A stretch of 32,000 nucleotides of DNA from Nostoc punctiforme PCC 73102 (GCF_000020025.1 NC_010628.1:510001-542000); one strand, 5' to 3'. Positions 2,746 to 28,806 are shown, counted from the first letter of the stretch. Numbers and translations are program-made. The notes: a model not told the origin generated them from the letters alone.

Positions 2746-2908
2746 ATTTAGCCTCTGTGACTCGTAAGGATCGGGGCATAGGGGGACTAGGAGTCCCCTC
2801 TAAGATTAGGGGGGAGATTAGAGGGAAAGGTCAAAGGTCAAAGGTCAAATGTGAGATTCTTCCTTTTTCCTTTTTCCTTGTGCTAAAGCGTTATTTCTTA
2901 GCAGCGAT

Positions 2909-3859
<951 letters not shown>

Positions 3860-4150
3860 TCACGCCAGTTGAGCGACAGTAGTGAGCGCGTGTAGAGCAT
3901 CGTTGGTAGCGTTGGCATAAATGCCTGCTGGGGGCGATCGCTCCACAGCCAAAATTATTGACAGTAAGTACATCGATCTTCCTCGTTAAAATTTTTTTCT
4001 TTTTGTTTTTGTCCTTTGTCCTTTGTCATTTGTTTTGACAAAGAACAAAGAAAATTACGCGATTTACAAATACGTCATAATGTGTTTCAGCTTGCAAGAT
4101 TCAATAGGACTTGATGTTGTTATTTGTCAACAATCAATGCATAAGTCCTA

Positions 4151-4507
4151 TTACTTGTTCAAAATAGCGCCCTTCATATTTGTGACGCGATCTAGTGCAG
4201 CTTTAGTGTTTTCTGCTGACACTCCACGCACAGCCATTGCTTCACCGAGATGCTTGGCGATCGCATCGAAGTGTGGTTGCTGTAAATTCAATCCTGCGTG
4301 GGTTTTGTCCATTGGACGACCGCCGTACTGCTTTGGCCCTTCAAATATTTGACCTAAGAAAGCAACTAGATGATTACGTTGCTTCGCCATATCTGTACCA
4401 GCAAAAATGGGACTGAGGAGGCTGTCTGTAGCAATGCGTTTGTGGAGTTCATCTACTACTTGTTCAATAGCTGGTTGTCCACCAATATTGTCGTACAATG
4501 TGCTCAT
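4151..4507 (-). CDS. glbN: Group I truncated hemoglobin (cyanoglobin) GlbN
   Basis: MSTLYDNIGGQPAIEQVVDELHKRIA... closely matches my recollection of Nostoc commune GlbN. I chose the ATG at 4507, preceded by a GGA-rich RBS. The ORF track extends to 4549. Confidence 0.88.
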   Translation of the reverse strand: MSTLYDNIGGQPAIEQVVDELHKRIATDSLLSPIFAGTDMAKQRNHLVAFLGQIFEGPKQYGGRPMDKTHAGLNLQQPHFDAIAKHLGEAMAVRGVSAENTKAALDRVTNMKGAILNK

Positions 4508-4575
4508 ATCCTGTTCCTTTGAAGCGAGTTGGATGATGAAAGAAAGCAAGTAGGCACTGAATCTATGAAGCCTAT

Positions 4576-4610
4576 ATGCTGTTAGCCGTCATAGCTAATT
4601 TAGCTATCGG
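4576..4610 (-). promoter_or_regulatory. Conserved intercistronic element upstream of glbN (partner at 5661-5690)
   Basis: atgctgttagccgtcatagctaatttagctatcgg shares atgctgttagc..atagctaa..ttagc with the nifU-upstream copy. It contains gctaa/ttagc hairpins. Confidence 0.35.
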
Positions 4611-4731
4611 TTGTCGGTAGGATTGAAGCATTGATGTGGAGACAATTATATGGTTCAAATCCTACTTTCTATTCCTGGCTGAATGCATATTAGAGCGTAT
4701 TTGTAGATTACGTTAAGTCCTACAGCAATTC

Positions 4732-5631
4732 CTAAACTGCTTCGACTACAAGGCTCTTGCTGACACGATCTTGTAATCTGGCTTCGATCGCAATTTTCAG
4801 AGTTGCTGTACTACTAGAACAGGAACCGCAAGCACCTTGCAGTACAACTTTAACGCGATCGCCTTCTACATCATATAGTTCTACATCTCCCCCGTCTGCA
4901 ATGAGTACGGGTCTGACTTCTTCATCAAGAACCTTTTGAATTAGAGCAATCTTTTGCACGTTTGTTAGCGATCGCTCTTTAGACGTAACAATTTCTGTGG
5001 CAACTTGTACGCCGTAATTGTTGAGAGCAGGTGAGGCGTATTCCTGTTGAACTGATCTAATAATATCATCAATGTTCGCTAGACAGGAACCGCATCCGCC
5101 ACCAGCTTTTACATAATTTGTTACTTGTTCAGCATCAGTGAGATGATTTTCTAGAATCACGCGGCGAATTTTAGATTCGCTGATGCCAAAGCAACTGCAA
5201 ATTAACGCGCCTTCATCGTCATCATCGTGGGTAGCTAGAGGTATGCCACGATAATTGTAGATAGCGGCTTCTAGCGCTTCTTGTCCCATCACAGAGCAAT
5301 GCATCTTTGCTTCTGGCAAACCACCAAGGTAATCTGCAATGTCTTTGTTGGACACTTTCAAAGCTTCATCTAAGGTTAAGCCTTTGACCATTTCGGTTAA
5401 TGCACTAGAAGATGCGATCGCACTAGTACAACCAAAGGTTTGAAAGCGAGCATCTAGAATTTTATCAGATTCTACTTCCACTTTCAGGTGCAATCTCAGA
5501 GCATCACCGCAAGCAATGCTACCGATTTCACCCGTTGCAACCTTAACTCCAGCTTCGCCCGTTTCTTCAATTTCTCCCTGATTTTTGGGATCGTAAAACA
5601 GTTCTAATACTTTATCAGTGTAGTCCCACAT
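4732..5631 (-). CDS. nifU: Fe-S cluster scaffold protein NifU
   Basis: 299 aa. IscU-like N-terminus (GSIACGDALRLHLKV, FGCTSAIASS), central CSCFG...GGGCGSC, C-terminal GACGSCSSS. Confidence 0.95.
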   Translation of the reverse strand: MWDYTDKVLELFYDPKNQGEIEETGEAGVKVATGEIGSIACGDALRLHLKVEVESDKILDARFQTFGCTSAIASSSALTEMVKGLTLDEALKVSNKDIADYLGGLPEAKMHCSVMGQEALEAAIYNYRGIPLATHDDDDEGALICSCFGISESKIRRVILENHLTDAEQVTNYVKAGGGCGSCLANIDDIIRSVQQEYASPALNNYGVQVATEIVTSKERSLTNVQKIALIQKVLDEEVRPVLIADGGDVELYDVEGDRVKVVLQGACGSCSSSTATLKIAIEARLQDRVSKSLVVEAV

Positions 5632-5660
5632 ATTATTAAGTTCTGAGTGGTGAATGCTTA

Positions 5661-5690
5661 ATGCTGTTAGCGGATAGCTAAGGTTTAGCC
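5661..5690 (-). promoter_or_regulatory. Conserved intercistronic element upstream of nifU (partner at 4576-4610)
   Basis: atgctgttagcggatagctaaggtttagcc lies 30-60 nt upstream of the nifU ATG. Confidence 0.35.
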
Positions 5691-5735
5691 CGTGGGGAGT
5701 GGAGAATAGTTAATTCCCTATTCCCTATTCCCTAA

Positions 5736-6944
5736 TTAACGATGCGCTAGTGCTTGTTCTTGTCCTTGCAACCAACCTGCATCATCATTTTTGAAGGGTG
5801 AGAGGGCGCGTAGACGTTCTACAATACTGGGCATTACCTCTATTACTTGATCGATTTCGGCTTCGGTGGTGTAGCGACAAAGACTGAAGCGAATTGAACC
5901 GTGCAAAGTTGTATAGGGTAAGCCCATTGCCCGCAGGACGTGGGAGGGTTCGAGAGAACCGGAGGTACAAGCAGAACCGGATGATGCACAGATACCGTAT
6001 TTGTTCAATAACAGTAGAATTGCTTCACCTTCGATGTACTTGAAACCGATATTGGTTGTGTTTGGCAATCTCTGCGTAACGTCGCCATTAACTACACAAT
6101 CGGGAATTTTAGCGAGTAAAGTTTGTTCGAGGCGATCGCGCAGCTTTCTTTCTCTTGTAGTGGCTTCTTCCAAGTGTAACAGTTCTAGTTCCGCAGCTTT
6201 GCCCAAGGCGATAATTGCTGGAACATTCTCTGTTCCAGCCCTACGTCCGCGTTCTTGGTGTCCCCCAATCATGAAGGGACGGAACCGAACCCCGCGCCGA
6301 ATATATAAAGCACCAATTCCTTTTGGCCCGTGTAGCTTGTGACCAGACAGGGTTAACATATCCACGGTGCTAGTTTTCATATTCAACGGGATTTTTCCCA
6401 CTGCTTGCACCGCATCTACATGGAAGATAGCGCCATACTCTTTGACACGCAACCCAATTTGCTCAATTGGGAAAATCGTTCCGGTTTCATTATTAGCATA
6501 CATAATTGTCACCAAGGCGGTGTTACCCGTCAAGGAAGCTTCTAGTTCATCTAGATCCAACTGCCCTTGATGATTTACTGATAAATAGGTAACACTATAA
6601 CCTTGGGTTTCTAATTGTTTGCAGACATTGAGTACTGCTGGATGTTCAACTTGAGTAGTGACGATGTGTCGCTTTTCAGGTTGCGCTAACAGTGCGGCTC
6701 GAATCGCCGCGTTATCTCCCTCAGTACCGCAACTTGTGTAGACAATTTCTGACTCATCGGCTCCCAGGATGGCTGCAAGTTGTTCTCTTGCTGTTCTCAC
6801 TGCTTTACCGACTTGCCCACCAAAGGTATGCATACTGGAGGGATTGCCGTAATAATCTGTGAGGTAAGGTAGCATTACCTCTATAACTTCTGGGTCTACC
6901 TTAGTGGTAGCATTATTATCAAGATAGATGCAGTTATTTTGCAT
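5736..6944 (-). CDS. nifS: Cysteine desulfurase NifS
   Basis: IYLDNNATT start region, SGHKLHGPKG PLP-lysine motif, SSGSACTSG active-site Cys loop. The ORF track begins at a TTG (6956); the ATG at 6944 is more likely. Confidence 0.93.
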   Translation of the reverse strand: MQNNCIYLDNNATTKVDPEVIEVMLPYLTDYYGNPSSMHTFGGQVGKAVRTAREQLAAILGADESEIVYTSCGTEGDNAAIRAALLAQPEKRHIVTTQVEHPAVLNVCKQLETQGYSVTYLSVNHQGQLDLDELEASLTGNTALVTIMYANNETGTIFPIEQIGLRVKEYGAIFHVDAVQAVGKIPLNMKTSTVDMLTLSGHKLHGPKGIGALYIRRGVRFRPFMIGGHQERGRRAGTENVPAIIALGKAAELELLHLEEATTRERKLRDRLEQTLLAKIPDCVVNGDVTQRLPNTTNIGFKYIEGEAILLLLNKYGICASSGSACTSGSLEPSHVLRAMGLPYTTLHGSIRFSLCRYTTEAEIDQVIEVMPSIVERLRALSPFKNDDAGWLQGQEQALAHR

Positions 6945-6978
6945 TGTTGTCTTCAATTAAGAATTAGGAATTATTTAA

Positions 6979-7335
6979 TTAAGCTTCAGAACCCACTGAT
7001 TGGGATTGACGCTTTTGCAACTGCTCTGAGTATTTCTGAGAATAGGTTTGAAACCAACGTTCCCAGTAATCTTGTTTATTTGTTAATTTAGCGACTACGC
7101 GGTTGTAATTAGCAAACCAGCCTTCCCAGTAATCGCTAGGCTGCTTAACGCAACCATCGCACGTGGGACAACCAGCTTTACACTGAGGTACGGTATGAAT
7201 GCTACCAACACAATTTGTACAAAGTTCAGGGTCAATCCAGTGCTGTCCGTCAACCACTTTAACTGCATTTGTGGGACATACCGTTAGACAGAGATTGCAG
7301 GAAATACACTGGCTAGTAAGAATTTTGTAAGCCAT
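6979..7335 (-). CDS. fdxN: Ferredoxin FdxN (2x[4Fe-4S] type), uninterrupted
   Basis: 118 aa. CISCNLCLTVCP and CTNCVG...CKAGCP cysteine clusters. Position between nifB and nifS. Confidence 0.88.
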   Translation of the reverse strand: MAYKILTSQCISCNLCLTVCPTNAVKVVDGQHWIDPELCTNCVGSIHTVPQCKAGCPTCDGCVKQPSDYWEGWFANYNRVVAKLTNKQDYWERWFQTYSQKYSEQLQKRQSQSVGSEA

Positions 7336-7371
7336 GATTTATTCTCCTTTTGGGAAATGGGGCATTAGAGT

Positions 7372-7445
7372 CAGGGGAGAGGTTACAGGTGACAGGTGAT
7401 AGGTAATAATCTCTCCCCTGTCCCCTGTAACCTATTCCCTATTCG
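7372..7445. repeat. Heptameric STRR-type repeats in the nifB-fdxN spacer
   Basis: ggttaca ggtgaca ggtgata ggtaata ... tcccctg tcccctg, partly self-complementary. Confidence 0.7.
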
Positions 7446-8890
7446 TTATTCCCTAATTCCTTAACGTATTGCTCGTAAAACTCTAAAGCAACCTTTTCAA
7501 TCACGTCGTAAGCTTCAACAGTCTTGATTCCAGCTTCTTGCAATTTTTCTTGAGGACAGTTACCAATCTTGGAAACTAAAACTGCTTTGCAATCTGCGAT
7601 CGCTTTCATAATATGCTCAAAAGAAGCTTCTTCGCCGTATCCACCTTGGCAGTATTGGTCAATTTTGCGATGACCGATAAAGCGAACTTCGTTTCCACCC
7701 ACTTCGTAAATTTGGAATTCTTTCGCATGACCGAAGTGTTGGTTAACTAATCCGCCGCCTTTGGTTGCTACTGCAACTAAAACTTTCGGACTATTGGCAA
7801 TTTTCTTGCCAGCTAGCGCCTTATCTTTGGCTACTTTAAGTTCTTCTTTAAACTTCTCAATTCCTTCGTGAACGGTAGCGCGTTGCTCCATGTCATATTC
7901 GGGAGCCATTTCCAAGAATTTCTCTTTGGAAAACTCTTGGCTGCGGTCTTCTCCCAACAATCCGACTGCATCGGCACGACACTGACGACAGTGGCGCATC
8001 ATTTTCATGTTACCAGAGCAGTTGTCTTGAACTTCTTTGAGTTCTTTGGGTGTGGGGCCGCGTTGACCGATTAAACCAAAGTGTGTGCCATGTTCTGGTG
8101 CAGAAATCAATGGCATGATGTTGTGCAAGAATGCACCTTTCTCACGAATGACTCGATTCACTTCGACTAAGTGATGGTCATTAATTCCGGGAATCATCAC
8201 GGAATTGACTTTGCACAAGATGTCAGCATCTTTCAGGGCTTGCAATCCTTCCATCTGTCTTTCGTGGAGGATTTTCGCACCTTCAAGACCTCTGTAACGC
8301 TTGCGTCTGTAGTGAACCCAAGGATAAATCTTAGCACCGATCTCTGGATCTACCATGTTAATGGTGATCGTTACGTGATCTATATTTAATTGTTTAATGC
8401 GATCGATGTAATCAGGCAGCATTAAACCATTGGTTGATAAGCACAGCTTGATGTCTGGTGCTTGTGCTGCAATCAACTCAAATGTGCGGAAGGTTTTTTC
8501 TGGGTTCGCCAATGGGTCGCCAGGGCCAGCAATTCCCACAACTGTCATTTGGGGAATCTTGCCACCAATGACCAAAGCTTTGTGTGCGGCTTCTTCTGGT
8601 GTTAGCAATTCGCTAACTACTCCAGGACGGCTTTCGTTAGCGCAATCATATTTGCGGTTGCAATAGTTGCATTGAATGTTGCAAGCTGGTGCAACTGCAA
8701 CGTGCATCCGAGCGTAGTGGTGATGAGCGTCTTCGCTGTAGCAGGGATGTTTAGCAATGCGTTCTTGGAGCTTTTCGTCCCTTTCCACGGTGGTGCTGGT
8801 GGTGCTATCGCAGCCGCAACCACCTGATTTTGCTTGGGTTGGCGATTCCGTAGCGTTGGAGTTGAGGAGTCGTGTAGACGGTGATGTCAT
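7439..8890 (-). CDS. nifB: Nitrogenase cofactor biosynthesis radical SAM protein NifB with C-terminal NifX-like domain
   Basis: [12 protein letters not shown] radical SAM motif. C-terminal [26 protein letters not shown] NifX/NafY-like domain. I chose the ATG at 8890 (MTSPSTRLL...). The ORF track extends to a TTG at 9067, which I consider leader. Confidence 0.93.
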
Positions 8891-9247
8891 TGAATTTCGC
8901 AAAAGGTCGGTGGACTTGGCTGCCACTGTGGGAGATGCTGTTGCTACTCTTTCATGCCCAGAATTGAAGTCGCGTCTTCCACACTGCCTGCAAACCCTTG
9001 GGTGAGGGCGACTTGTTTTCAAGTCAGGCAGGCGATAGATATCTGATGTTCGGCTGGTGTGTGTCAACGTTCGGTTCTTGGGTAGAATTTGTGCTTACAG
9101 CCGCGACTTCTCTTCACTTCAGGCATGGTGCTATGTCATCCCTCCACTCACCCTTCGCTTTGTTTTGTTTCAGAGCGTTAGGTGATTGGCGATATAAGAT
9201 TTATAGCAGCCGTCTCCCAGCCAGATGTTGCGTCTCTCTAGGATAGA

Positions 9248-9385
9248 ATTTATTGGATTTATTACTTTTGTACTCAAATACTAAAAACCCTAATTCTTCA
9301 AGCATTACAAGAATTAAAAAAGTTTTTTTTGGGTAGGGGTTCTAGTATTTTTTGGTTGGGGTTCTAGTGTTTATAGACAGGGGTT
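9248..9385 (-). promoter_or_regulatory. nifB upstream promoter-like module (blocks AACCCCTG, 2x AAAYACTAGNNCCCC, GGGTTT-N-TTTGAGTACAA, AATCCAATAAAT)
   Basis: The reverse complement aligns block for block with 17867-17994 upstream of cysE, in the same orientation relative to each gene. The spacing between the two ACTAG motifs is an identical 22 nt in both copies. Confidence 0.6.
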
Positions 9386-9933
9386 CAGGATTTCTTTGTA
9401 CTCAGCCAAAACCCAATCCTAGCAATAACTTTAACTAAATTGAAACTAGGTTTGGGTTATTTAAATGTGTACTCAGATTGCCCTCAATTTCCGTCAAAAG
9501 CCATAAATGCCAAGGGTTTGAGGGTGAAAAACTGGAGTAGTCTACATCGTTCTACTCCAGAAACGTGCGAAATTCAATTCTGTATCTAACATATCATTTT
9601 TTTCAGGGTAAAAATGCAATTCATATTTATTTAATTTTTGCTTTGACCCTTCGACTTCTCTACGAGACGCTACGCGAACGCTCAGTGTTAACAATGATAT
9701 TCAATTGTGGTTCTAAGTCTTATCTGATAAGCGATATGAGGCAATGAAAATAGATGTCTTGCTACACATAATTTTCAAAAAACTTAACTTTTAACTCCTT
9801 TTTTTTATTCCCACAATGAGGAGATGGGTAGAAAACTCTCAGATTTTGTGTTTAAGAGAAACAACAAACTATAATCTAACATGATTGAACGATCGCAATG
9901 AATTTTCTGAATTGCTCACTACAAACCTTAACG

Positions 9934-12151: not shown

Positions 12152-15100
12152 ATGCTGGACTGGTTAGCTATTTGGGGTGTAACTCAGGCCGCCGGGTTGA
12201 TTTTTAAACCCATTCTGGAAGACTTAGCCAAGGATGCTGCTAAAGATTGGGCTAAAGATTTATTAAAAGGCATCCCTGGCAAGATTGTGCAGAAACTTAA
12301 GAAGGAAGACATAGAAATTGCTGCTGGTAAAGCCTTAAAGGAATTTTTGCAACTCATGCAGCAGCAGTTAAAGGTTCGTTGCAAACTTGCTGAAACTGAG
12401 ATTAAAGAGTACACCACAGACATCCAGAAATTTATCAGCGATAAGTCAGTTGCAGAACTTCTTGGTAAGGCTTTTGATATTAATTGTGAATCTCTAGATG
12501 CTAAAACGCTAGAAGATAGTTGGAACAGGCTGCAATTAAAACCTCTGCCATCTAAGTTTAACTGGCAATCAATTACAGAACAGTATTTTACACAAGTCCA
12601 AGAACTTCTTTTAGATTCAAAAGAATTACACCATATCCTAGAATTACAAAAATTATCTGATATTGAAATAAATACCAAAGAAATTGCTGGCGTTATTGTA
12701 GATTTTAATTTAGTTAAATATCAAGAAGGAATCCGCGAACGTTATGGCAATCTCAAGTTAGATAGCTTAGATACTAGCGGCTATGCCTATAACGAACTGA
12801 AGTTATGGCGGATTTTTACTGCTCAAAATGTCCGGGAAACTCATCAAGTTTTACCACAAGTTCACGAACTGCCTAAAGAACATCTGAGACGACTGCGAGA
12901 AAGTGAGCAAGTAGAAGCTGTTGAATTAGAAGAATTAGAACGCCACAAACGGGTTTATTTTGAACAGCCGATCCGTTCAGTTTTAGATGTTGTCAATAAA
13001 AAACAAGATTATAAATATATTGTCATTTTGGGCGATCCTGGTTCCGGGAAGTCTACATTGTTGCAATTTCTGGCTTTGAATTGGGCTGAGTCACCACTGG
13101 ATAATGTTATATCTTTACCAATTCCCTTGCTAATTGAATTACGCACTTATATGCGGCGACGAGAAGATAAAGAGTGCAATAATTTTCTAGAATTCTTTCA
13201 TCAATGTAGTGGTGCTGTTCATCATCTCAATCAGCTTGAAGTAGATAAACAATTAAAAGCTGGTAATGCCTTAGTGATGTTTGATGGTTTGGATGAGGTA
13301 TTTGAGCCTGGTAAGCGAGAGGATGTAATTACTGATATTCATCGCTTTACTAATGACTATCCTGATGTGCAGGTAATTGTCACTTCTCGGATTATTGGCT
13401 ATAAACCGCAACGATTGCTTAATGCTGAGTTTCGCCACTTTATCTTACAAGATTTAGACTCAGAACAAATTCAGGATTTTATCAACCGTTGGCATGAGTT
13501 AACTTTTACCGATGCAGTAGATAAAGTGAGAAAACAGGAACGGCTACAAAGAGGAATTGAAGCTTCCAAATCTATTGCAGAATTAGCGGGAAATCCTCTG
13601 CTGTTGACGATGATGGCAATTCTGAATCGGAATCAAGAGCTACCAAGAGATAGAGCTACACTTTACGATCAAGCATCACGGGTATTGCTACATCAATGGG
13701 ATGTGGAACGCGTTTTGATTGAAGATAAGAGGTTAGATCCCAAAACGATTGATTATAAGGATAAGCAAGCGATGCTGCGTCAGGTTGCTTATCTTATGCA
13801 AACTGGTGATAAAGGTTTGGCTGGGAATTTGATTAATGAAAATGATTTAGTCAAAGTTCTGACTGATTATCTCAAAACCATAGAATTTGATAAACCCAGA
13901 GAAGTTGCGAAGGTGATGATTAATCAGCTGCGGACTCGTAACTTTATGTTATGTTTCCTGGGTGCGGATTATTATGCTTTTGTGCATCGGACATTTTTAG
14001 AATATTTCTGTGCTTGGGAGTTTGTCTGGCAGTTTAAAGAAACGCAAACGCTGACTATTGAGGAACTTAAGAATGAAGTTTTTGGCAAACACTGGCAAGA
14101 TGAAAGTTGGCATGAAGTCTTGCTGCTAATTACGGGAATGATTGAGGCTAAATTTGTTGGTGAAATTCTTGATTATTTAATAGTGCAAGATGGCGAAGAG
14201 GAGAAGTTTGTTAATCTGTTTTTAGCGGCTAAGTGTCTTGTAGAGGTGAGAAACCGCGCGGCGATCGCGTCAATAGCTATTCAATTACTTAACCAGTTAA
14301 AGGACTTAACTAAATATGATCTCTGGTACTATTACGACCCCCGGCTGTATGGAGCAGAAACGGAGCTAGTTCAGGAAATTCGCACTCAAGCAGTCACAGC
14401 AATTGCAACGACCTGGCAAGAATCTCTCAATACCAAAACCTGGCTCAAAGAACGCGCTACCCAGGATGATGACAACGATGTGCGACGTGCAGCAGTCGAA
14501 GAATTAGCGAATCACTTCAAAGATGACCCCGACACCAAATCCTGGCTCAAAGAACGCGCTACCCAGGATGATGACAACGATGTGCGACGTGCAGCAGTCG
14601 AAGAATTAGCGAATCACTTCAAAGATGACCCCGACACCAAATCCATCCTCAAAGAACGCGCTACCCAAGATGATCACGAAAATGTGCGAAGTGCAGCAGT
14701 CGAAGGATTAGCAGAGAATTTCAAAGATGACCCCGACACCAAATCCATCCTCAAAGAACACGCTATCCAAGATGATCACGAAGATGTGCGATGTGCAGCA
14801 GTCGAAGGATTAGCGAAGAATTTCAAAGATGACCCCGACACCAAACCTATCCTCAAAGAACACGCTACCCAAGATGATCACGAAAATGTGCGAAGTGCAG
14901 CAGTCGAAGGATTAGCAGAGAATTTCAAAGATGACCCCGACACCAAATCCATCCTCAAAGAACGCGCTATCCAGGATGATGACTGGTATGTGCGAAGTGC
15001 AGCAATCCGAGAATTAGCGAAGAACTTCAAAGATGACCCCGACACCAAAGCTTGGCTCAAACAAATTGCTAACCACGATGATGACAGACTTGTGCGAGGT

Positions 15101-15772
15101 GCAGCAGTCGACGAATTAGCGAAGAACTTCAAAGATGACCCCGGCACCAAAGCTTGGCTTAAACAATGCGCTACCCAAGATGATGACTCGGTTGTGCGAA
15201 GTGCAGCAATCCGAGAATTAGTGAAGAACTTTAAAGACTCCGACACCAAAATCTGGCTCAAACAACTTGCTAACTACGATGATGACTCAGTTGTGCGAAG
15301 TGCAGCAATCCGAGAATTAGCGAAGAATTTTAAAGATGACCCCGACACCAAAACCTGGCTTAAACAATGCGCTACCCAAGATGATAACTACTTGGTGCGA
15401 AGTACAGCAGCCCACGAACTAGCGAAGAACTTCAAAGATGACCCCGAAACCAAATCCATCCTCAAAGAACTTGCTACCAAGGATGATGACAACGATGTGC
15501 GAGGTGCAGCAGTCCAGGAATTAGCGAAGAACTTCAAAGATGACGCTGATTTATTTGACATCTACTACCAGTGCGCTGTTAATGACCCCTTTAAGGGTAG
15601 CCATGAGTCCTATATATCCAACCCTCGGCGCATTGCACTAGAGATAATTATCAAGCAATATCCTCAGCATCCCCAGACTTTACCACTGTTGCGCGATCGC
15701 GCAGAGAATGACCCAGATGAGCAAGTGCGGGAATTTGCTCAGAAGAAGTTGGCACAATTAAGCAATAATTGA
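12152..15772 (+). CDS. NACHT-family STAND NTPase with an unknown helical N-terminal domain (about 300 aa) and a C-terminal HEAT-type repeat array (NLR-like architecture)
   Basis: Walker A GDPGSGKST (13031-13057), Walker B LVMFDGLDEV (13271-13300), then 11 tandem 34-aa repeats of consensus TKxWLKxxATQDDDxxVRxAAxxELAKNFKDDPD. ATG at 12152; the ORF track starts at a GTG at 12110. Confidence 0.85.
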   Translation: MLDWLAIWGVTQAAGLIFKPILEDLAKDAAKDWAKDLLKGIPGKIVQKLKKEDIEIAAGKALKEFLQLMQQQLKVRCKLAETEIKEYTTDIQKFISDKSVAELLGKAFDINCESLDAKTLEDSWNRLQLKPLPSKFNWQSITEQYFTQVQELLLDSKELHHILELQKLSDIEINTKEIAGVIVDFNLVKYQEGIRERYGNLKLDSLDTSGYAYNELKLWRIFTAQNVRETHQVLPQVHELPKEHLRRLRESEQVEAVELEELERHKRVYFEQPIRSVLDVVNKKQDYKYIVILGDPGSGKSTLLQFLALNWAESPLDNVISLPIPLLIELRTYMRRREDKECNNFLEFFHQCSGAVHHLNQLEVDKQLKAGNALVMFDGLDEVFEPGKREDVITDIHRFTNDYPDVQVIVTSRIIGYKPQRLLNAEFRHFILQDLDSEQIQDFINRWHELTFTDAVDKVRKQERLQRGIEASKSIAELAGNPLLLTMMAILNRNQELPRDRATLYDQASRVLLHQWDVERVLIEDKRLDPKTIDYKDKQAMLRQVAYLMQTGDKGLAGNLINENDLVKVLTDYLKTIEFDKPREVAKVMINQLRTRNFMLCFLGADYYAFVHRTFLEYFCAWEFVWQFKETQTLTIEELKNEVFGKHWQDESWHEVLLLITGMIEAKFVGEILDYLIVQDGEEEKFVNLFLAAKCLVEVRNRAAIASIAIQLLNQLKDLTKYDLWYYYDPRLYGAETELVQEIRTQAVTAIATTWQESLNTKTWLKERATQDDDNDVRRAAVEELANHFKDDPDTKSWLKERATQDDDNDVRRAAVEELANHFKDDPDTKSILKERATQDDHENVRSAAVEGLAENFKDDPDTKSILKEHAIQDDHEDVRCAAVEGLAKNFKDDPDTKPILKEHATQDDHENVRSAAVEGLAENFKDDPDTKSILKERAIQDDDWYVRSAAIRELAKNFKDDPDTKAWLKQIANHDDDRLVRGAAVDELAKNFKDDPGTKAWLKQCATQDDDSVVRSAAIRELVKNFKDSDTKIWLKQLANYDDDSVVRSAAIRELAKNFKDDPDTKTWLKQCATQDDNYLVRSTAAHELAKNFKDDPETKSILKELATKDDDNDVRGAAVQELAKNFKDDADLFDIYYQCAVNDPFKGSHESYISNPRRIALEIIIKQYPQHPQTLPLLRDRAENDPDEQVREFAQKKLAQLSNN
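14429..15550 (+). repeat. 11 tandem 102-bp (34-codon) HEAT-type repeats inside the NACHT gene
   Basis: Copies 1 and 2 are identical over the full 102 bp from 14441 (second copy from 14543). Later copies differ mostly at a few codon positions. Confidence 0.9.
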
Positions 15773-15785
15773 CGAGAATATTCTT

Positions 15786-15850
15786 GTAGAGATGGCGATT
15801 TATCGCATCTAACGTGCCAGTTTTTCAGACGCGATAAATCGCGTCTCTAC
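15786..15850. repeat. Inverted pair of a Nostoc-type small dispersed palindromic repeat (GTAGAGACGCGATTTATCGCGTCT-like); probable terminator hairpin after the NACHT gene
   Basis: gtagagatggcgatttatcgcatct (15786-15810) and agacgcgataaatcgcgtctctac (15827-15850) are near reverse complements. A related palindrome lies at 31827-31846. Confidence 0.6.
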
Positions 15851-15910
15851 ATGAGGGCTTTCTGGTTATCCCATCTAAATCAGTAAAATTAAATAAAAAT
15901 AGGTAATCTC

Positions 15911-16165
15911 ATGACTACATCTATAAATACAGCCAAAGTCTACGACGAAATTATAGAGTTTATTGCTGCTGGAACCACTCCTCAAAGTGTTATCGATTTC
16001 AAACTCTCGGATGCAGCCAAAGACCGTTTAGAGGATTTGGTTTACCGCGCAAAAACTGAAGGTCTTACAGGAAGTGACCAGCGAGAGTTAGATCATTTCC
16101 TCACGCTAGAGCATATTATGAGGTTGGCAAAAGCAAAAGCTCATCAGTATATTAACCCTAAGTAA
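15911..16165 (+). CDS. Small (84 aa) helical protein of unknown function, immediately upstream of the HNH gene
   Basis: ATG start, 9-nt gap to the next ORF. No motif I can assign. Confidence 0.6.
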   Translation: MTTSINTAKVYDEIIEFIAAGTTPQSVIDFKLSDAAKDRLEDLVYRAKTEGLTGSDQRELDHFLTLEHIMRLAKAKAHQYINPK

Positions 16166-16174
16166 GTATTCAAA

Positions 16175-16615
16175 ATGCCTCGTCTATATATTAATGCAGA
16201 ACTGCGGCGTTTAGTTGCCGAGCGCGCCGCCCATCTATGCGAGTATTGTTTATATCCAGAATTAGACGGCTTAGGTTTTCAAGTTGACCATATAATCAGT
16301 GTGAAACACGGCGGCGCTACAACAGCAGATAATCTCTGCTATGCCTGTATTTTCTGTAACCTGCAAAAAGGGACGGATTTAGGCTCAATTAATTGGCAAA
16401 CTGGCGAACTTGTGCGGTTTTTTAACCCACGCAGAGACTTTTGGGGCGATCATTTTCGACTAGATGAGGCTGTGATTCAGCATCAAACAGATATCGGTGA
16501 AGTTACCGCACGTATCCTAGATTTTAACAGCGATGAAAGGATTGTAGAACGACAAGCTTTGATTGCATCTGGTCAGTATCCCTCAGCATCAGCGCTAAAA
16601 CAGATAAATAAATAG
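16175..16615 (+). CDS. HNH endonuclease family protein
   Basis: 146 aa. CEYC...DHIISVKHGG...DNLCYACIFCNLQKG is a classic HNH/zinc-ligand pattern (16286-16315 encodes DHIISVKHGG). Confidence 0.8.
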   Translation: MPRLYINAELRRLVAERAAHLCEYCLYPELDGLGFQVDHIISVKHGGATTADNLCYACIFCNLQKGTDLGSINWQTGELVRFFNPRRDFWGDHFRLDEAVIQHQTDIGEVTARILDFNSDERIVERQALIASGQYPSASALKQINK

Positions 16616-16705
16616 GTTATGATGTGCGATCGCATCCATCAATGGGAATTCTATACTTAGCAACTATTGCTACTTCACCATTAGAACTCCCAAGGTAAAT
16701 ATATA

Positions 16706-17182
16706 ATGGCTTATCAGAATATTGCAGCCACCCTTTCGCCACAAGATATCCAAGAAATTAAAGCCGCGCTACAGACAGTCCAAAAAAAGATGCCCTTTCT
16801 GATTACTCTCAGCACTGAAGAACGGCGGAAGTTAGTAAAAATGGGCGATAAAAGCCTAGCTTTTGTGAATAATAGCATTACTGCTGCTCAGTCTAACCGC
16901 GAAATTCTTCCAGCCACTTTTGATGTTGAGGAACTGGTTCAAGATTATCAATTAGCGGCTGCGCTTACCGAACTTTTAACTTCAATGCAGCAACTCACCG
17001 AACAGGTAGATGATACCCTAATGGCTGTCGGTAGTGAAGCGATGACTAGCAGTTTGACTGTTTATGATTACGTGAAGACTGCATCAAAAAAGACTCCAGG
17101 CTTAAAAACTGTCGCTGAACAGTTGGGAGAACGTTTTAAAGCTATCAAAGGTAGACCAACTAAAGCCGCGTCCGGTTCTTGA
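16706..17182 (+). CDS. Hypothetical protein (158 aa), function unknown
   Basis: ATG preceded by aaggtaa. Coding-like composition. Its stop codon overlaps the first unit of the 21-bp array. Confidence 0.6.
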   Translation: MAYQNIAATLSPQDIQEIKAALQTVQKKMPFLITLSTEERRKLVKMGDKSLAFVNNSITAAQSNREILPATFDVEELVQDYQLAAALTELLTSMQQLTEQVDDTLMAVGSEAMTSSLTVYDYVKTASKKTPGLKTVAEQLGERFKAIKGRPTKAASGS

Positions 17183-17411
17183 GGCTTTGATACTCATTAA
17201 TGAGTCTTTGAACCCCATTAATGAACCTTTGAACTCCATTAATGAGCCTCTGAACTCCATTAATGAGGCTTTGATACTCATTAATGAGTCTTTGAACCCC
17301 ATTAATGAACCTTTGAACTCTATTAATGAGTCTCTGAACTCCATTAATGAGGCTTTGATACTCATTAATGAGTCTCTGAACTCCATTAATGAGGCTTTGA
17401 ACTCCATTAAC
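17181..17411. repeat. Tandem array of eleven 21-bp units (consensus gagKctttgaactccattaat) with an 84-bp higher-order period
   Basis: Units counted by hand. U1=U5=U9, U2=U6, U8=U10. Each unit junction carries the palindrome CATTAATG, extended to ACTCATTAATGAGT at some junctions. Both strands are open across the array. Confidence 0.9.
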
Positions 17412-17866
17412 GAATTTTTAGATACCTCATTCCCAGTCTATGGCTGGGAATGACTATTGGTAGGCTCCGCCTTCCAAATTTGCAGCAGAGCCGCAATGAA
17501 GCAGATTTTCAGGTTCTACCTAAAAATAAGATTTAAATCTGGAAACGAGATTTATAAAATTTTGGCGATCGCTATTCTCGTACATCTATATAATAAGAAA
17601 ACAGTCGCTACGAGCTATAACTATATTTTGAAACGTATATCTGCATACAGACAGCAAATCCTAAAAGAAAATAAAGAAACCTGTCTTTCGCTCAACTCAA
17701 TAATAGGATACTAATAGTAGTAGCATATACAAAAAATCAATTTCTAGCTTCATGTAAATCATATTTGAGTGCATCTGAGTACAACTTAATATATTGCAAA
17801 ATATCTTGACGAAATCTTAGCAAAGGCTTACGGGTAAAGTTTCTTGTAGCGTGAACAGAAATTCTT

Positions 17867-18085: not shown

Positions 18086-18826
18086 ATGCAACAGTCTTTA
18101 GACAGTATTAGCGATCCCCCCAGTACCAAAACGCAGGATTCTGCACATAAATCCATGCTGAAAAATTTACTCTCTGGCGTTTTTTTTGAGCCATTATTGA
18201 GTGATTTTCGCATTATCTTTGAGCGCGATCCCGCAGCACGTAATTGGTTAGAGGTGGTGTTTTGCTATCCCGGATTGCACGCACTCTGTTTGCATCGTCT
18301 TGCTCACTGGTTACATGGTCGAGGAGTGGGTTTTATCCCTCGTTTCATTTCCCATTTGGGGAGATTTTTGACGGGAATTGAAATTCACCCAGGTGCAGAG
18401 ATTGGCCAGGGCGTGTTTATCGACCACGGAATGGGTGTTGTCATTGGCGAAACTGCGATCGTGGGCGACTACACACTGATTTACCAGGGCGTTACCCTTG
18501 GCGGAACTGGTAAAGAAACTGGTAAGCGTCATCCCACAGTGGGCAAAAATGCAGTGATCGGGGCGGGTGCGAAAGTTTTAGGTAATCTGCAAATTGGCGA
18601 TCGCGTCCGCATTGGTGCAGGTTCGATTGTCTTGCGGAATATACCCAACGATTGCACAGTTGTGGGAATTCCCGGTCGAATTATTTCCCGAAATGAAAAC
18701 GCCAGCCTTTCTCCTTTAGAACATGGAAAGCTACCCGATATGGAAGCAACCGTGATTCGTTCTTTGCTCTCGCGCGTTGAGCAACTCGAAAAACAACTGC
18801 AAACTCTAGGCGTTAAGAGTCATTAG
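18086..18826 (+). CDS. cysE: Serine O-acetyltransferase, nif-cluster associated (CysE/NifP type)
   Basis: 246 aa. ERDPAARN motif and hexapeptide-repeat region [32 protein letters not shown]. An alternative start at 18155 is possible. Confidence 0.88.
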
Positions 18827-18900
18827 TCATTAGTCATTGGTCATTAGCAAAGGACAAAGGACAAAGGACAACTGACAAAGGACAAAGGACAAATGACAAA
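18819..18900. repeat. Bipartite heptamer STRR block, (GTCATTA)n followed by (AGGACAA)n, filling the cysE to next-ORF spacer
   Basis: gtcattagtcattagtcattggtcattag + caaaggacaaaggacaaaggacaactgacaaaggacaaaggacaaatgacaa. Confidence 0.85.
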
Positions 18901-19606: not shown

Positions 19607-19977
19607 TGAATTTGTACCTTGTAGCTCCCAGTCCCATTACCTGCCTAAAGTACACACCAATGCTCTAGAAAATCTGAGGTTACTAAGATGATTACATCCT
19701 TAATTGCTGGATTCTGTGTTTTACTTTGTTCAGGATTTGCTAATAGTTATATTAGTTCATTGCTACTCGAACCAAACTCAACTGACATCGGTAAAAACGA
19801 TTAGTAAATTATACATTGTTTTAGTTCCCTGTCATACAGATGTGATGCTGCTAATAAGTCAATAATTAAGGATCATGTATCCTACATTATGAATTGTGAT
19901 ATTTTTAGCATTTGCCATCGCTGGGGATTGTAGAGAGAAAGGATATTAAGAATACTTCCAAGAGAGGGATATTTGCA

Positions 19978-21111
19978 ATGAATCAAATCATAATTAATGA
20001 CACTACACTACGTGATGGCGAACAGGCAGCAGGTGTTGCTTTTACCCTACAAGAAAAAGTAGCGATCGCTAAGTTTCTCGATTCTATTGGTATTCCCGAA
20101 TTAGAAGTCGGTATACCAGCAATGGGTGACGAAGAAACCCGTGCGATCGCCGCAATTTCTGACTTGGGTTTACAAGCAAAACTCCTGGGCTGGAACCGCG
20201 CTGTCATCTCAGATATTAAGGCTTCTATCGCTTGCGGTCTGAACCGGGTGCATATTGCCATTCCCGTCTCTGGTATCCAAATCGCCGCCAAATTCCACGG
20301 TCAATGGCGAGTAAGTTTGCAAAAACTCAAAGACTGTATTAGCTTCGCCGTCGATCAAGGTCTTTGGGTAGCAGTCGGCGGAGAAGATTCTTCCAGGGCT
20401 GACGAAAACTTCCTTTTAGATGTAGCGCTTTATGCTCAAGAATGGGGTGCATCCCGGTTCCGCTTCTGCGACACCGTAGGAGTTCTCGACCCTTTCACCA
20501 CCTACACCAAGGTTAAACGGCTGGTTTCAGCTTTGATGATTCCTCTAGAAATCCACACCCACAACGATTTTGGTCTGGCAACAGCCAACGCCCTTGCGGG
20601 TATCAAAGCTGGAGCCTTATCAGTGAATACCACAGTTAACGGATTAGGCGAAAGAGCGGGAAACGCAGCTTTAGAAGAAGTTGTCATGGCAATCAAACGC
20701 ATCTATGGCGTTGATTTGGGCATTGACACACCCGGTTTGCTGGAACTATCTCAACTAGTTGCAGCCGCATCAGGAGCTAGCGTACCACCTTGGAAAGCGA
20801 TCGTTGGCGAAAATACCTTTGCTCACGAATCTGGCATCCATGCTCACGGGGTATTGCAAAATCCCATTACCTACGAACCATTTGCTCCCGAAGAGGTGGG
20901 TTGGGAACGGCGTCTAGTATTAGGTAAACATTCTGGACGGCATTTGGTTTCAAACTTGCTAGAACAACATGGAATTTTCTTGAACTCCCAAGAAACCCAA
21001 TCTGTTTTAGATGCAGTGCGCCATCAATCGGTACAGAAAAAACGCAGCCTGACGACAGAAGAACTATTGAATTTGGTCAGAGAACAGAGGTACTCTCATG
21101 CAACGCGATGA
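19978..21111 (+). CDS. nifV: Homocitrate synthase NifV
   Basis: [11 protein letters not shown] start of the HMGL-like domain, [15 protein letters not shown] metal-site motif. Followed by nifZ and nifT. ATG at 19978; the track starts at a TTG at 19912. Confidence 0.92.
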
Positions 21112-21570: not shown

Positions 21571-21661
21571 GGGGGCTGGGGATTGGGGACTGGGGAATAA
21601 ATCTTTTCCCAATCCCCAATCCCCAATTCCTAATTCCCAATTCCCAATTCCCAATTCCCAA
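21571..21661. repeat. STRR heptamers (GGGGACT/GGGGATT type) forming a long imperfect hairpin after nifT
   Basis: gggctggggattggggactggggaa ... tcccaatccccaatccccaattcc, then (aattccc)n. Probable operon terminator or RNA stabiliser. Confidence 0.7.
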
Positions 21662-21677
21662 TAACTTTTTATCAATC

Positions 21678-25742: not shown

Positions 25743-25785
25743 GGGACTGGGGACTGGGGAGTAGGGACTGGGGATTGGGAACTAG
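25743..25785. repeat. STRR heptamers (GGGACTG type)
   Basis: gggactggggactggggagtagggactggggattggga. Confidence 0.8.
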
Positions 25786-28130: not shown

Positions 28131-28742
28131 ATGAAAGACCAACAAGGATCTAATCGCATTTCTTCAGGCACAATTGCAGCCGTTTCAGCAGTGGTTGTAG
28201 CGGTGGGTGGCGGTGTGGCTTGGTTTACTACACACTCCAGCAATCCTCCCACACCATCAAACCCCTCTGGACCCATCGCTCAACCAGCACAGCCATCAAC
28301 TAGGCAGCCAGCTAATGAGCAAAGCCCTAATGTTTATTGGCTCAGACCAAAAGACAAAAGTGTTGCTTTGGTTCCCCAACCTGTTAAAGTCGCTTCTATA
28401 CGAGCCAGCCAGCCTTTAGAAGCAGCTTTTCAAAGTTTGTTGGCAGGGCCGACAGAAGGAACAGATTCCACAACTATCCCCAAAGGAACTAAGCTGTTGG
28501 GACTGAAATCAGAAAATGACGAAGTTCACGTTAATTTATCTGAAGATTTTACCAGTGGTGGTGGTAGCACATCAATGATGGGTCGTGTCGGACAAGTTGT
28601 TTATACTGCGACAAGTTTAAATCCTAAAGCAAAGGTTTACATTGACGTGAACGGTAAACCATTGGATGTTTTAGGTGGTGAAGGCGTAGAGTTACAACAA
28701 CCATTAACTCGTGAAAGCTTTGAGAAAAATTATCAGCTTTAG
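28131..28742 (+). CDS. GerMN domain-containing membrane-anchored protein
   Basis: N-terminal TM segment, Pro-rich linker, LEAAFQSLLAGPTEGTDSTTIPKGTKLLG pattern typical of GerMN. Confidence 0.7.
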   Translation: MKDQQGSNRISSGTIAAVSAVVVAVGGGVAWFTTHSSNPPTPSNPSGPIAQPAQPSTRQPANEQSPNVYWLRPKDKSVALVPQPVKVASIRASQPLEAAFQSLLAGPTEGTDSTTIPKGTKLLGLKSENDEVHVNLSEDFTSGGGSTSMMGRVGQVVYTATSLNPKAKVYIDVNGKPLDVLGGEGVELQQPLTRESFEKNYQL

Positions 28743-28744
28743 TT

Positions 28745-28806
28745 ATTGGTCATTAGTCATTAGTCATTAGTCATTAGTAAAGGACAAAGGACAAATGACA
28801 ACTGAC
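28745..28806. repeat. Second copy of the bipartite (GTCATTA)n + (AGGACAA)n STRR block
   Basis: ttggtcattagtcattagtcattagtcattagtaaaggacaaaggacaaatgacaactgac. Same composite as 18819-18900. Confidence 0.85.

What the first reader, a model, noticed from the sequence alone, without database searches (positions are those of the whole stretch)
12152..17411. Candidate NLR-like defence island: NACHT-HEAT STAND NTPase followed by a small ORF, an HNH endonuclease, an unknown 158-aa protein and a phased palindrome array
Five co-oriented elements sit back to back on the plus strand in a region with no relation to nitrogen fixation. They are (1) a 1206-aa NACHT NTPase with a repeat-type sensor, (2) an 84-aa ORF, (3) a 146-aa HNH nuclease beginning 9 nt later, (4) a 158-aa protein with no recognisable motif, and (5) an 11 x 21-bp repeat array that starts on the stop codon of (4). 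Bacterial NACHT/STAND proteins are an established class of anti-phage sensors, but they normally carry a recognisable effector fused at the N-terminus. Here the N-terminal 300 aa show no nuclease, protease, TIR or similar motif, while a stand-alone HNH nuclease lies next door. A split arrangement, with the sensor in one gene and a nuclease effector plus a small partner in trans, is my inference. I do not recognise it as a named system.
Basis: partly seen in the sequence, partly recalled or inferred. Interest (0 to 1): 0.8.

Follow-up and report, generated by a model that had tools for sequence, protein, structure and literature searches.

The report
NLR-like sensor beside autonomous nuclease cassette
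A Nostoc gene for an immune-type sensor protein has stayed next to a small "inhibitor plus DNA-cutting enzyme" gene pair across many cyanobacteria, which suggests but does not prove that they work together, while the last gene and its DNA repeat array form a separate unit of unknown function.

Summary
All five elements are real and lie at the stated coordinates, but they are three modules, not one island.

(A) The 1206-aa protein is NNH2 + NACHT + 11 HEAT repeats. This bacterial NLR architecture is already catalogued in Kibby et al., Table S1. Its N-terminus is a named helical domain with no known enzymatic activity.

(B) The 84-aa ORF (s84) and the HNH form a two-gene cassette. s84 is homologous (hhalign 99.4%) to the C-terminal domain of ~120-aa partners that abut paralogous HNH genes on cyanobacterial plasmids, where no NACHT is present. 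That layout resembles an antitoxin plus toxin.

(C) The 158-aa protein (p158) and its 21/42-bp array recur together in 50 of 50 assessable loci, and also in Stenomitos with no HNH nearby. The array is non-coding.

In 80 genomes anchored on the HNH, 57 of 75 assessable loci carry the NACHT orthologue directly upstream. These loci span at least 10 unrelated flanking contexts and several orders, often with gaps of only 25-27 nt. However, 18 loci keep an intact s84-HNH under purifying selection without any NACHT, and NACHT relatives also exist without the pair.

I conclude that this is an ancient NACHT-s84-HNH operon that can come apart. The nuclease cassette is plausibly the sensor's effector in trans (about 0.45) but may be an independent neighbour (about 0.4). 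The surroundings are nif and housekeeping genes, not a defence island.

The parts
12152..15772 (+). Module A: a 1206-aa bacterial NLR-type protein. NNH2 helical domain at aa 25-208 (nt ~12224-12775). NACHT NTPase at aa 289-449, with Walker A at aa 294 and DGLDE at aa 378. Eleven near-identical 34-aa HEAT repeats at aa 761-1134.
   Evidence: Pfam; motifs and repeat register; orthologues at 55-96% identity in 57 loci; the same architecture is listed in Kibby et al., Table S1.
14432..15544 (+). A 102-nt x 10.9 tandem repeat that encodes the HEAT sensor. Differences between repeats cluster at a few positions (D-[DHN]-x-x-V-R-x). Orthologue length ranges from 887 to 1365 aa.
   Evidence: TRF; repeat listing; ORF lengths; PDB matches only to alphaRep HEAT binders.
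15786..15850 (.). A long hairpin in the NACHT-s84 spacer. It is a copy of the dispersed palindromic repeat GTAGAGACGCGATTTATCGCGTCT. In many other Nostocales this position holds a HicB-like antitoxin ORF instead.
   Evidence: z = -5.2; for the HicB-like insert in relatives.
15911..16165 (+). Module B, gene 1: s84, an 84-aa protein predicted to have four helices. It is homologous to the C-terminal domain of the ~120-aa partners of plasmid HNH cassettes. Proposed role: HNH-binding inhibitor or adaptor.
   Evidence: 557 cyanobacterial homologues and no Pfam family; AF2 pLDDT 82; hhalign 99.4%, E 2e-21 against the plasmid partners; dN/dS 0.11-0.28.
16175..16615 (+). Module B, gene 2: a 146-aa HNH nuclease. 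Its CxxC...DH...N...CxxCN motif set is invariant across homologues.
   Evidence: Pfam HNH; invariant C22, C25, D38, H39, N53, C58, C61, N62; the core aligns with the Cas9 HNH domain and Gme HNH; weak PADLOC PtuB matches, E 6e-6; absent from phage collections.
16706..17182 (+). Module C, gene: p158, a predicted all-helical protein. It belongs to a large uncharacterised family with no Pfam or PDB relative.
   Evidence: 2381 clusters at 50% identity; no family or structure match; found without s84-HNH in Stenomitos and Drouetiella.
17180..17410 (.). Module C, cis element: a non-coding tandem array of 11 x 21 bp with an 84-bp super-period and three exact CTCATTAATGAG palindromes. It is conserved in position and period, but not in unit sequence, next to p158 genes.
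   Evidence: arrays found in 50 of 50 assessable p158 loci; absent where p158 is absent, except L073; present in Stenomitos; no reading frame is open in all arrays.
17427..17453 (.). A 10-bp-stem hairpin immediately after the array. It may mark the 3' end of the p158-array unit.
   Evidence: (I8).

Best explanation
The region holds three separately conserved modules.

**A.** A catalogued type of bacterial NLR: NNH2 helical N-domain, NACHT ATPase switch, and a variable HEAT-repeat sensor.

**B.** A self-contained nuclease cassette. s84 is a small helical partner, and the HNH is a Cas9/PtuB-like DNase. Plasmid-borne relatives show an antitoxin-plus-toxin layout: a partner with an extra N-terminal segment directly abuts the HNH gene.

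**C.** p158 with its own 21-bp non-coding array, unrelated to A and B.

A and B descend from an ancient three-gene operon, NACHT -> s84 -> HNH. In this Nostoc the operon has been loosened by a 139-nt spacer carrying a repeat hairpin.

**Proposed mechanism**
1. s84 holds the HNH inactive.
2. A foreign protein binds the HEAT repeats.
3. The NACHT domain oligomerises using ATP.
4. The clustered NNH2 domains capture s84 or the s84-HNH complex.
5. The nuclease is released and cuts DNA, giving abortive infection.

B can also act, and be maintained, without A.

**Shown:** the domain content, intact catalytic motifs, conserved adjacency, and the modularity. **Inferred:** that s84 binds the HNH, that A activates B, and any role in phage defence.
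For: **Linkage**
- 57 of 75 assessable HNH-anchored loci have the NACHT orthologue directly upstream on the same strand.
- These loci fall in at least 10 different flanking contexts: Nostoc, Coleofasciculus, Microcoleus/Lyngbya, Potamolinea, Chroococcidiopsis, Westiellopsis, Scytonema, Iphinoe and Anabaena cylindrica. Their neighbours are unrelated housekeeping genes.
- The NACHT-to-s84 gap is only 25-27 nt in L064, L066, L077 and L080.
- dS is already above 1 between orders, so the adjacency is old.
- NACHT-less loci look derived. They share flanks or junction sequence with trio loci: L056 with L064/L080, L060 with L063, and L065/L078 with L066.

**An effector is missing from A**
- NNH2 occupies the N-terminal slot. 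In other proteins of clades 2 and 3 of the same table, that slot holds REase, Tox-HNH, TIR, DrHyd or caspase domains.

**B looks like an inhibitor plus nuclease**
- The HNH catalytic residues are invariant.
- s84 matches the C-terminal domain of the partners that abut plasmid HNH paralogues.
- The s84-to-HNH spacing is -20 to 19 nt everywhere.

**The sensor varies**
- The HEAT repeat number and a few repeat positions vary between orthologues.
Against: - The linkage is dispensable both ways. 18 loci keep an intact s84-HNH with no NACHT within at least 4.5 kb upstream. dN/dS stays near 0.13 in such a locus (L053).
- Members of the linked NACHT clade occur without the pair: the Gloeocapsa plasmid (L081), L084 and L086.
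- All deeper NNH2-NACHT relatives found in the metagenome scan lack the pair, and the two examined in detail (L084, L089) sit beside housekeeping genes.
- No motif is shared between NNH2 and either s84 or HNH.
- In Nostocales the spacer is 0.14-1.5 kb, and often carries an inserted HicB-like gene. This implies separate transcription there.
- s84-HNH evolves as slowly as a housekeeping gene.
- PADLOC finds no system.
- There are no defence genes nearby.
- All loci may trace back to a single linkage event.
- No experiment or complex model was available.
Confidence: 0.45

Rival explanations
1. The modules are independent neighbours. The NACHT protein is a complete single-gene NLR, as most tested bNACHTs are. 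NNH2 would be its own effector or adaptor, for example through its hydrophobic N-terminal helix. s84-HNH would be an unrelated toxin-antitoxin-like or housekeeping nuclease cassette. The two lie side by side only through common descent or block transfer.
For: - The pair exists alone on plasmids and in 18 chromosomal loci, under purifying selection.
- NACHT relatives exist alone.
- No adaptor motif is shared.
- Nostoc loci tolerate 0.5-1.5 kb inserts between the two.
- The most hydrophobic stretch of the first 300 aa is residues 4-22 of NNH2.
Against: - The same-strand, same-order adjacency survives complete turnover of flanks in at least 10 contexts and several orders. Gaps of 25-27 nt leave no room for a separate promoter.
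- Chromosomal s84 lacks the N-terminal extension of the plasmid partners. This fits a cassette that no longer regulates itself.
Confidence: 0.4
2. One reading: all five elements (NACHT, s84, HNH, p158 and the array) form one defence island or system.
For: The elements are co-oriented and contiguous in this window. They are syntenic across Nostoc.
Against: - p158 and the array are missing from every trio outside Nostocales.
- They occur together without s84-HNH in Stenomitos.
- Within Nostoc the synteny extends equally to the nifV-side genes, so it does not discriminate.
Confidence: 0.05
3. The HNH is a mobile homing endonuclease or a phage-derived selfish element.
For: HNH domains are common in homing endonucleases. 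PHROGs HNH families match the core of the domain.
Against: - No relative is found in IMG/VR or in GenBank phages.
- The gene is single-copy and syntenic, with dN/dS about 0.1.
- It is always paired with s84 and is never inside another gene.
Confidence: 0.02

Closest known systems
Bacterial NACHT (bNACHT) NLR-related proteins, clades 2/3 of Kibby et al. (bioRxiv 10.1101/2022.07.19.500537; architecture 'NNH2+NACHT+HEAT_2')
   Same: The domain architecture is identical. The Westiellopsis prolifica IICB1 protein in their Table S1 has the same architecture as the NACHT in locus L059, which comes from the same strain. The NACHT-specific Walker B signature and a repeat-type sensor are both present.
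   Different: The bNACHTs tested were described as rarely lying in operons, and then only poorly conserved ones, and bacterial NACHT proteins as typically carrying fused effector domains. No NNH2-type protein appears among those tested. Here a conserved downstream s84-HNH pair accompanies the gene in about three quarters of the loci.
Septu (PtuA ATPase + PtuB HNH nuclease)
   Same: A P-loop NTPase gene lies next to a separate small HNH nuclease gene. The HNH gives its best PADLOC matches to PtuB models, with some alignments extending past the HNH core to about residue 130.
   Different: The matches are weak (E 6e-6). The NTPase is a STAND NACHT, not an ABC/AAA_15-type PtuA; only the P-loop matches, at E 0.002. 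A third small gene (s84) intervenes. No PtuB structure was recovered by sequence search.
Type II toxin-antitoxin cassettes (small upstream antitoxin abutting the toxin gene)
   Same: The gene order and spacing match: s84 lies -20 to 19 nt upstream of the HNH. Plasmid paralogues encode a ~120-aa partner whose C-terminal domain matches s84. That partner also has an N-terminal 'M-x-L-T-I-Q-I-P-D-E-L' segment that I read as ribbon-helix-helix-like. The cassettes sit next to ParA/ParB, ParM and integrase genes.
   Different: s84 itself has no DNA-binding extension. No TA family model matches. Neither toxicity nor neutralisation has been tested. The strong purifying selection on the HNH is unusual for an addiction toxin.
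STAND/NTPase conflict systems with effector-associated domains (EADs) recruiting an adjacent-gene effector (Kaur et al. 2020, PMC7159879; 2021, PMC8195603)
   Same: The logic is the same: a non-catalytic N-terminal helical domain on the NTPase, with the enzymatic effector encoded by the neighbouring gene. These systems are also enriched in filamentous cyanobacteria.
   Different: EAD systems are defined by the same domain being present on both proteins. No similarity was detected between NNH2 and either s84 or HNH.
Colicin E-type HNH DNase with its immunity protein (Im7/Im9)
   Same: By analogy only, from my own knowledge: an HNH DNase is kept inactive by a helical protein of about 85 aa.
   Different: Foldseek against the PDB returned no significant match for the s84 model, and Im proteins were not among the hits. 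The gene order is the opposite. Colicins are secreted toxins.

Membership tests
NACHT-clade STAND NTPase / bNACHT | Pfam NACHT above the gathering score, with Walker A GxxxxGK[ST] | tested here: met
   46.9 bits against a cut-off of 26.7. GDPGSGKS at aa 294.
NACHT-clade STAND NTPase / bNACHT | NACHT-specific Walker B signature D[GAS]hDE (as quoted from Kibby et al.) | tested here: met
   DGLDE at aa 378.
NACHT-clade STAND NTPase / bNACHT | C-terminal superstructure-forming repeat sensor and an N-terminal effector or adaptor domain | tested here: met
   HEAT_2 at 240 bits with 11 repeats; NNH2 at 207 bits. The same architecture appears in their Table S1.
NACHT-clade STAND NTPase / bNACHT | Confers phage resistance | not testable with these tools
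   No experiment was possible. No NNH2-type protein appears among those tested in the paper.
Septu (PtuAB) | PtuA-type ATPase partner | tested here: not met
   PADLOC PtuA matches only aa 281-312, the P-loop, at E 0.0021.
Septu (PtuAB) | PtuB-type HNH nuclease | tested here: inconclusive
   Ten PtuB models match at E 6e-6 to 7e-3. No PtuB chain was found by PDB sequence search.
Type II toxin-antitoxin | Bicistronic small antitoxin gene abutting the toxin gene | tested here: met
   9-nt gap in the window. Gaps are -20 to 19 nt in 20 loci and -10 to 12 nt in the plasmid paralogues.
Type II toxin-antitoxin | Antitoxin with a DNA-binding domain for autoregulation | tested here: not met
   s84 is 82-93 aa with no upstream in-frame extension. 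Only the plasmid partners carry an extra N-terminal segment, and no Pfam RHH model hit it.
Type II toxin-antitoxin | Toxin toxicity neutralised by the antitoxin | not testable with these tools
   Requires co-expression experiments.
EAD / Death-like adaptor STAND systems | The same adaptor domain on the NTPase and on the adjacent effector protein | tested here: not met
   hhalign of NNH2 against s84 gives probability 0.5%; against HNH, 0.03%.
Defence island | Neighbourhood enriched in known defence genes | tested here: not met
   The window flanks are nifB/S/U/H/D, a GSDH-like gene, a cysE-like gene and nifV. Other trio loci are flanked by aconitase-family, NdhH, SSB, lipoamide-dehydrogenase-type, ABC and MscS genes. 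Only scattered Uma2 or HicB genes occur nearby.

The most novel reading that the evidence does not exclude
A toxin-antitoxin-like nuclease cassette (s84 inhibitor + HNH) has been domesticated as the trans-acting effector arm of a bacterial NLR. On sensing a ligand, the NACHT oligomer would strip s84 from the HNH through its NNH2 domain. This would be a three-gene NLR system with a releasable nuclease, conserved across filamentous cyanobacteria and different from both fused-effector bNACHT/Avs proteins and homotypic EAD recruitment.
Probability: 0.3. Interest if true: 0.75.

Novelty: new variant of a known kind. Interest (0 to 1): 0.5.

Why it matters
Most characterised bacterial NLR-like sensors (bNACHT, Avs) carry their killing domain on the same polypeptide. 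How "effector-less" versions such as the NNH-type proteins act is an open question.

A conserved NACHT-s84-HNH operon would give NNH2 a concrete, testable partner. It would also show a route by which toxin-antitoxin-like cassettes become immune effectors.

The tight-gap versions, with 25-27 nt between genes, are compact enough to clone and test.

Separately, the p158 gene with its position-conserved but sequence-divergent 21-bp array is an unexplained, widely conserved cis element in cyanobacteria.

Tried and rejected
- **Homotypic adaptor idea.** Profile-profile comparison of s84 and of HNH against the NACHT N-terminus found nothing.
- **Array as a heptad-repeat gene.** One minus-strand frame in the window reads as LMEFKAS-type heptads. 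However, no frame is open in all 42 arrays, and L143 has stops in all six frames (L043 in five of six). Rejected.
- **Phage or homing HNH.** No relatives in IMG/VR or in GenBank phages.
- **Known RNA.** Rfam found nothing at gathering thresholds.
- **Promoter and terminator scans.** No excess over shuffled sequence, so uninformative.
- **p158.** The single-sequence AF2 model was unusable at pLDDT 43. No Pfam or PDB relative was found even with a 43-member profile. The alignment was too diverse for a viral-contig scan.
- **Distance correlation.** NACHT distances against s84+HNH distances gave r = 0.72. Shared ancestry would produce this anyway, so it was not used as evidence.
- **Single-linkage clustering of flanks.** It lumped 70 loci together through repeated families. 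I replaced it with explicit gene-order strings.
- **Literature.** I found no description of a NACHT + small ORF + HNH trio.

Full report
**1. Observation**

The window is a Nostoc-type nif region. It holds nifD, nifH, nifU, nifS and nifB on the minus strand at 1303-9067, then a GSDH-like gene. On the far side of the finding are a cysE-like gene (18086-18826) and nifV (19912-21111).

All five reported elements lie between these, on the plus strand:
- NACHT ORF, 12152-15772
- s84, 15911-16165
- HNH, 16175-16615, 9 nt after the s84 stop
- p158, 16706-17182
- A tandem array at 17180-17410 (period 21 x 11.0 copies; period 84 x 2.8 at 95% matches). It begins on the p158 stop codon.

The three small ORFs are real genes. 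Against orthologues their dN/dS is 0.06-0.28, with dS up to above 1. That is the same range as the adjacent cysE-like gene.

**2. Module A, the NACHT protein**

Pfam finds NNH2 ('NACHT N-terminal Helical domain 2') at aa 25-208 with E 2e-61. It also finds NACHT (aa 289-449) and HEAT_2 at 240 bits.

Walker A (GDPGSGKS, aa 294) and the NACHT-specific Walker B (DGLDE, aa 378) are intact.

The sensor is eleven near-identical 34-aa HEAT repeats, encoded by a 102-nt tandem repeat. Differences between repeats cluster at a few positions. Orthologue lengths range from 887 to 1365 aa. The only PDB relatives are engineered alphaRep HEAT binders.

It has no enzymatic motif, but it is a named domain.

The architecture NNH2+NACHT+HEAT_2 is listed for several cyanobacteria in Table S1 of Kibby et al.. 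One entry is Westiellopsis prolifica IICB1, the strain that locus L059 comes from. In clades 2 and 3 of that table the N-terminal slot of other proteins holds REase, Tox-HNH, TIR, DrHyd or caspase domains. The paper does not assign NNH a function. It says bNACHTs were only rarely in poorly conserved operons.

PADLOC models do not recognise the protein beyond its P-loop.

**3. Module B, s84 and the HNH**

*The HNH.* It has the invariant set C22, C25, D38, H39, N53, C58, C61 and N62 across homologues. Its core aligns with the Cas9 HNH domain and Gme HNH. Its best defence-library matches are weak hits to Septu PtuB (E 6e-6). Its closest homologues are all cyanobacterial and 70-97% identical. None occur in IMG/VR or in GenBank phages.

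*s84.* It has 557 cyanobacterial homologues and no Pfam family. A confident four-helix model (pLDDT 82) matches nothing significant in PDB or BFVD.

*The plasmid paralogues.* These gave the decisive clue. 35 cyanobacterial plasmids carry HNH paralogues at 33-54% identity. In all four examined, a 118-124-aa 'hypothetical protein' abuts or overlaps the HNH start. The four are pCC7120alpha, Pseudanabaena ABRG53a, Gloeothece Cy782204 and Nostoc C057 p057_G. The cassettes sit beside ParM, ParA/ParB or integrase genes, and none has a NACHT.

The C-terminal ~80 aa of these partners are homologous to s84 (hhalign 99.4%, E 2e-21). Their extra N-terminal segment reads MAQLTIQIPDELA..., which looks ribbon-helix-helix-like to me. 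That is my reading only; no Pfam RHH model hit it.

So the wider family is an autonomous two-gene 'partner + HNH' cassette laid out like a type II toxin-antitoxin pair. Chromosomal s84 is a partner without the N-terminal extension, whether or not a NACHT is present.

**4. Is A linked to B?**

*From the HNH side.* I fetched 80 loci around HNH orthologues from one-genome-per-species contigs and mapped the window's proteins onto them.
- s84 accompanies the HNH in 77 of 80 loci.
- A NACHT orthologue (55-96% identical over the first 700 aa) lies directly upstream on the same strand in 45 loci.
- In 9 further loci, only a C-terminal part of NACHT is seen, at the start of the fetched stretch. In 3 loci only fragments remain.
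- NACHT is absent in 18 loci that have at least 4.5 kb of upstream sequence. Five loci cannot be assessed.
- This gives 57 of 75 assessable loci with NACHT evidence.

*Flanks.* The trio occurs in at least 10 flanking contexts that share no other gene. Immediate neighbours include aconitase-family, NdhH, SSB, lipoamide-dehydrogenase-type, ABC-transporter and MscS genes.

*Spacing.* In Chroococcidiopsis, Anabaena cylindrica UHCC 0172, Microcoleus and Lyngbya, the NACHT stop and the s84 start are 25-27 nt apart. Synonymous sites are saturated between these lineages. Retention of order, strand and tight spacing is therefore the signature of an operon.

*Direction of change.* The NACHT-less loci look derived. 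L056 shares downstream genes with L064 and an s84 variant with L080. L060 shares its flanks with L063. The ADA-clade loci L065 and L078 retain the L066-type junction sequence. In the NACHT-less loci the upstream genes are unrelated: TPS-domain, NHL-repeat and HsdM genes.

**5. Evidence against obligate coupling**

- The 18 NACHT-less loci keep a full-length s84-HNH. dN/dS is about 0.13 in NACHT-less L053.
- Several NACHT genes are frameshifted or truncated while the pair stays intact: L007, L026, L037, L062 and L074.
- Sampling from the NACHT side gave the opposite picture. None of 59 metagenome loci found with an NNH2-NACHT profile contains an s84 or HNH family member.
- In a neighbour-joining tree the HNH-linked NACHTs form one clade. 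That clade also contains the Gloeocapsa pGLO7428.03 copy, which lies next to Swt1-HEPN and DUF1156 genes, as well as L084 and L086, all without the pair. The deeper paralogues all lack the pair too; the one examined (L089) sits beside housekeeping genes.
- No motif is shared between NNH2 and either s84 or HNH. Recruitment of the EAD type is therefore not supported.
- In Nostocales the NACHT-s84 spacer is 0.14-1.5 kb and often holds a HicB-like antitoxin ORF.
- In this window the spacer is 139 nt. It contains a strong hairpin that is a copy of a dispersed palindromic repeat.
- About 45 nt upstream of s84 are conserved whether or not NACHT is present. This suggests the pair has its own promoter there.

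**6. Module C, p158 and the array**

p158 is present in 53 of the 80 loci. All of these are Nostocales-type apart from one Chroococcales-labelled MAG, and none of the non-Nostocales trios has it.

In every one of the 50 p158 loci with enough downstream sequence, a tandem array of period 21 or 42 lies 0-285 nt after the stop, with 9-15 x 21 bp in most. The unit sequence differs by lineage. Most units share a GAGTnTTTGAnACTC-like core.

Loci without p158 lack such arrays, with one exception: L073 has an array but no p158.

A p158 orthologue in Stenomitos frigidus has no s84-HNH nearby, yet it is followed by a 21/63-bp array. In Drouetiella, p158 also stands apart from any HNH.

No reading frame is open in all arrays, so the array is non-coding. 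As a single strand it folds far better than shuffled controls (z = -7 and -10). That does not tell us whether it acts as DNA or RNA.

p158 belongs to a large uncharacterised family: 2381 clusters at 50% identity, with no Pfam or PDB relative.

I conclude that p158 and its array form a separate unit of unknown function, possibly a protein with its own binding platform or a structured 3' UTR. It is not part of the NACHT/HNH system.

**7. Verdict**

The conserved trio makes this plausible, and I could not find it described in the literature available here.

However, the pair is an autonomous, widespread cassette, and the linkage breaks in both directions. My probabilities are:
- Functional coupling (the NACHT triggers a nuclease held inactive by s84): about 0.45
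- Independent neighbours: about 0.40
- The five-part island: about 0.05

It is not a defence island, and PADLOC gives no system call. I classify it as a new variant of a known kind (a bacterial NLR), of moderate interest, with clear experiments that would decide the question.

Noticed in passing
window 17180-17410; L001-L079 downstream of p158; L143 6563-6864: A 21/42-bp tandem array follows p158 genes across Nostocales and in Stenomitos. Its position and period are conserved, but its unit sequence diverges, so it evolves in concert within each lineage. It is non-coding and its function is unknown.
   Followed up: partly
L143 3211-5682 and L144 2576-5795: In Stenomitos and Drouetiella the p158 orthologue sits divergently next to conflict-type genes. 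These are a Peptidase_C14 caspase-like protein in one and an AAA_16 + TPR STAND-like pair in the other. In Nostoc it sits after the NACHT/HNH genes. This may be coincidence or a recurring association.
   Followed up: no
window 15786-15850 and 31823-31850: A dispersed palindromic repeat, GTAGAGACGCGAT(T/A)TATCGCGTCT, forms long hairpins after genes. It is probably a Nostoc MITE-like or terminator-like repeat family.
   Followed up: partly
L006 9191-9475, L063 8965-9276 and many Nostocales loci (families F18/F20): A HicB-like antitoxin ORF is inserted between NACHT and s84 in many Nostocales. Its last ~45 nt are still recognisable upstream of s84 in the window.
   Followed up: partly
alignment A3, first ~60 aa of NNH2 (window 12152-12330): The start of NNH2 comes in two sequence types: MLDWLAIWGVTQAAG...KDWAKDLLKG and IVEWFTTWIATKAVGFLVKTIIS...KDYAKDFFK. 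They are combined with different downstream blocks, which suggests recombination between NACHT alleles or paralogues.
   Followed up: no
L081 (Gloeocapsa sp. PCC 7428 plasmid pGLO7428.03) 7998-16837: An NNH2-NACHT orthologue (61% identity) lies on a mobilisable plasmid without s84-HNH. It is convergent with a Swt1-family HEPN protein, a four-helix-bundle protein and a DUF1156 protein, which looks like a defence cluster.
   Followed up: partly
L091 3808-8453: A distant NNH2-NACHT paralogue is followed by a reverse-transcriptase gene (RVT_1). This may be a diversity-generating or retron-like neighbour.
   Followed up: no
window 9321-9398, 18818-18900, 21606-21662, 25743-25783, 28739-28778, 30507-30557: Short tandem heptamer arrays (AGTCATT, CAAAGGA, TTCCCAA, GGGACTG, TTAGTCA and others) occur in intergenic regions. 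From my own knowledge, these are typical STRR-type repeats of heterocystous cyanobacteria.
   Followed up: no
L147 (Pseudanabaena plasmid ABRG53a) 1-4857: A plasmid 'partner + HNH' cassette lies just downstream of caspase-family, TPR and Uma2 genes, and upstream of an mfd-like gene. Here again the cassette sits beside conflict-type genes.
   Followed up: no
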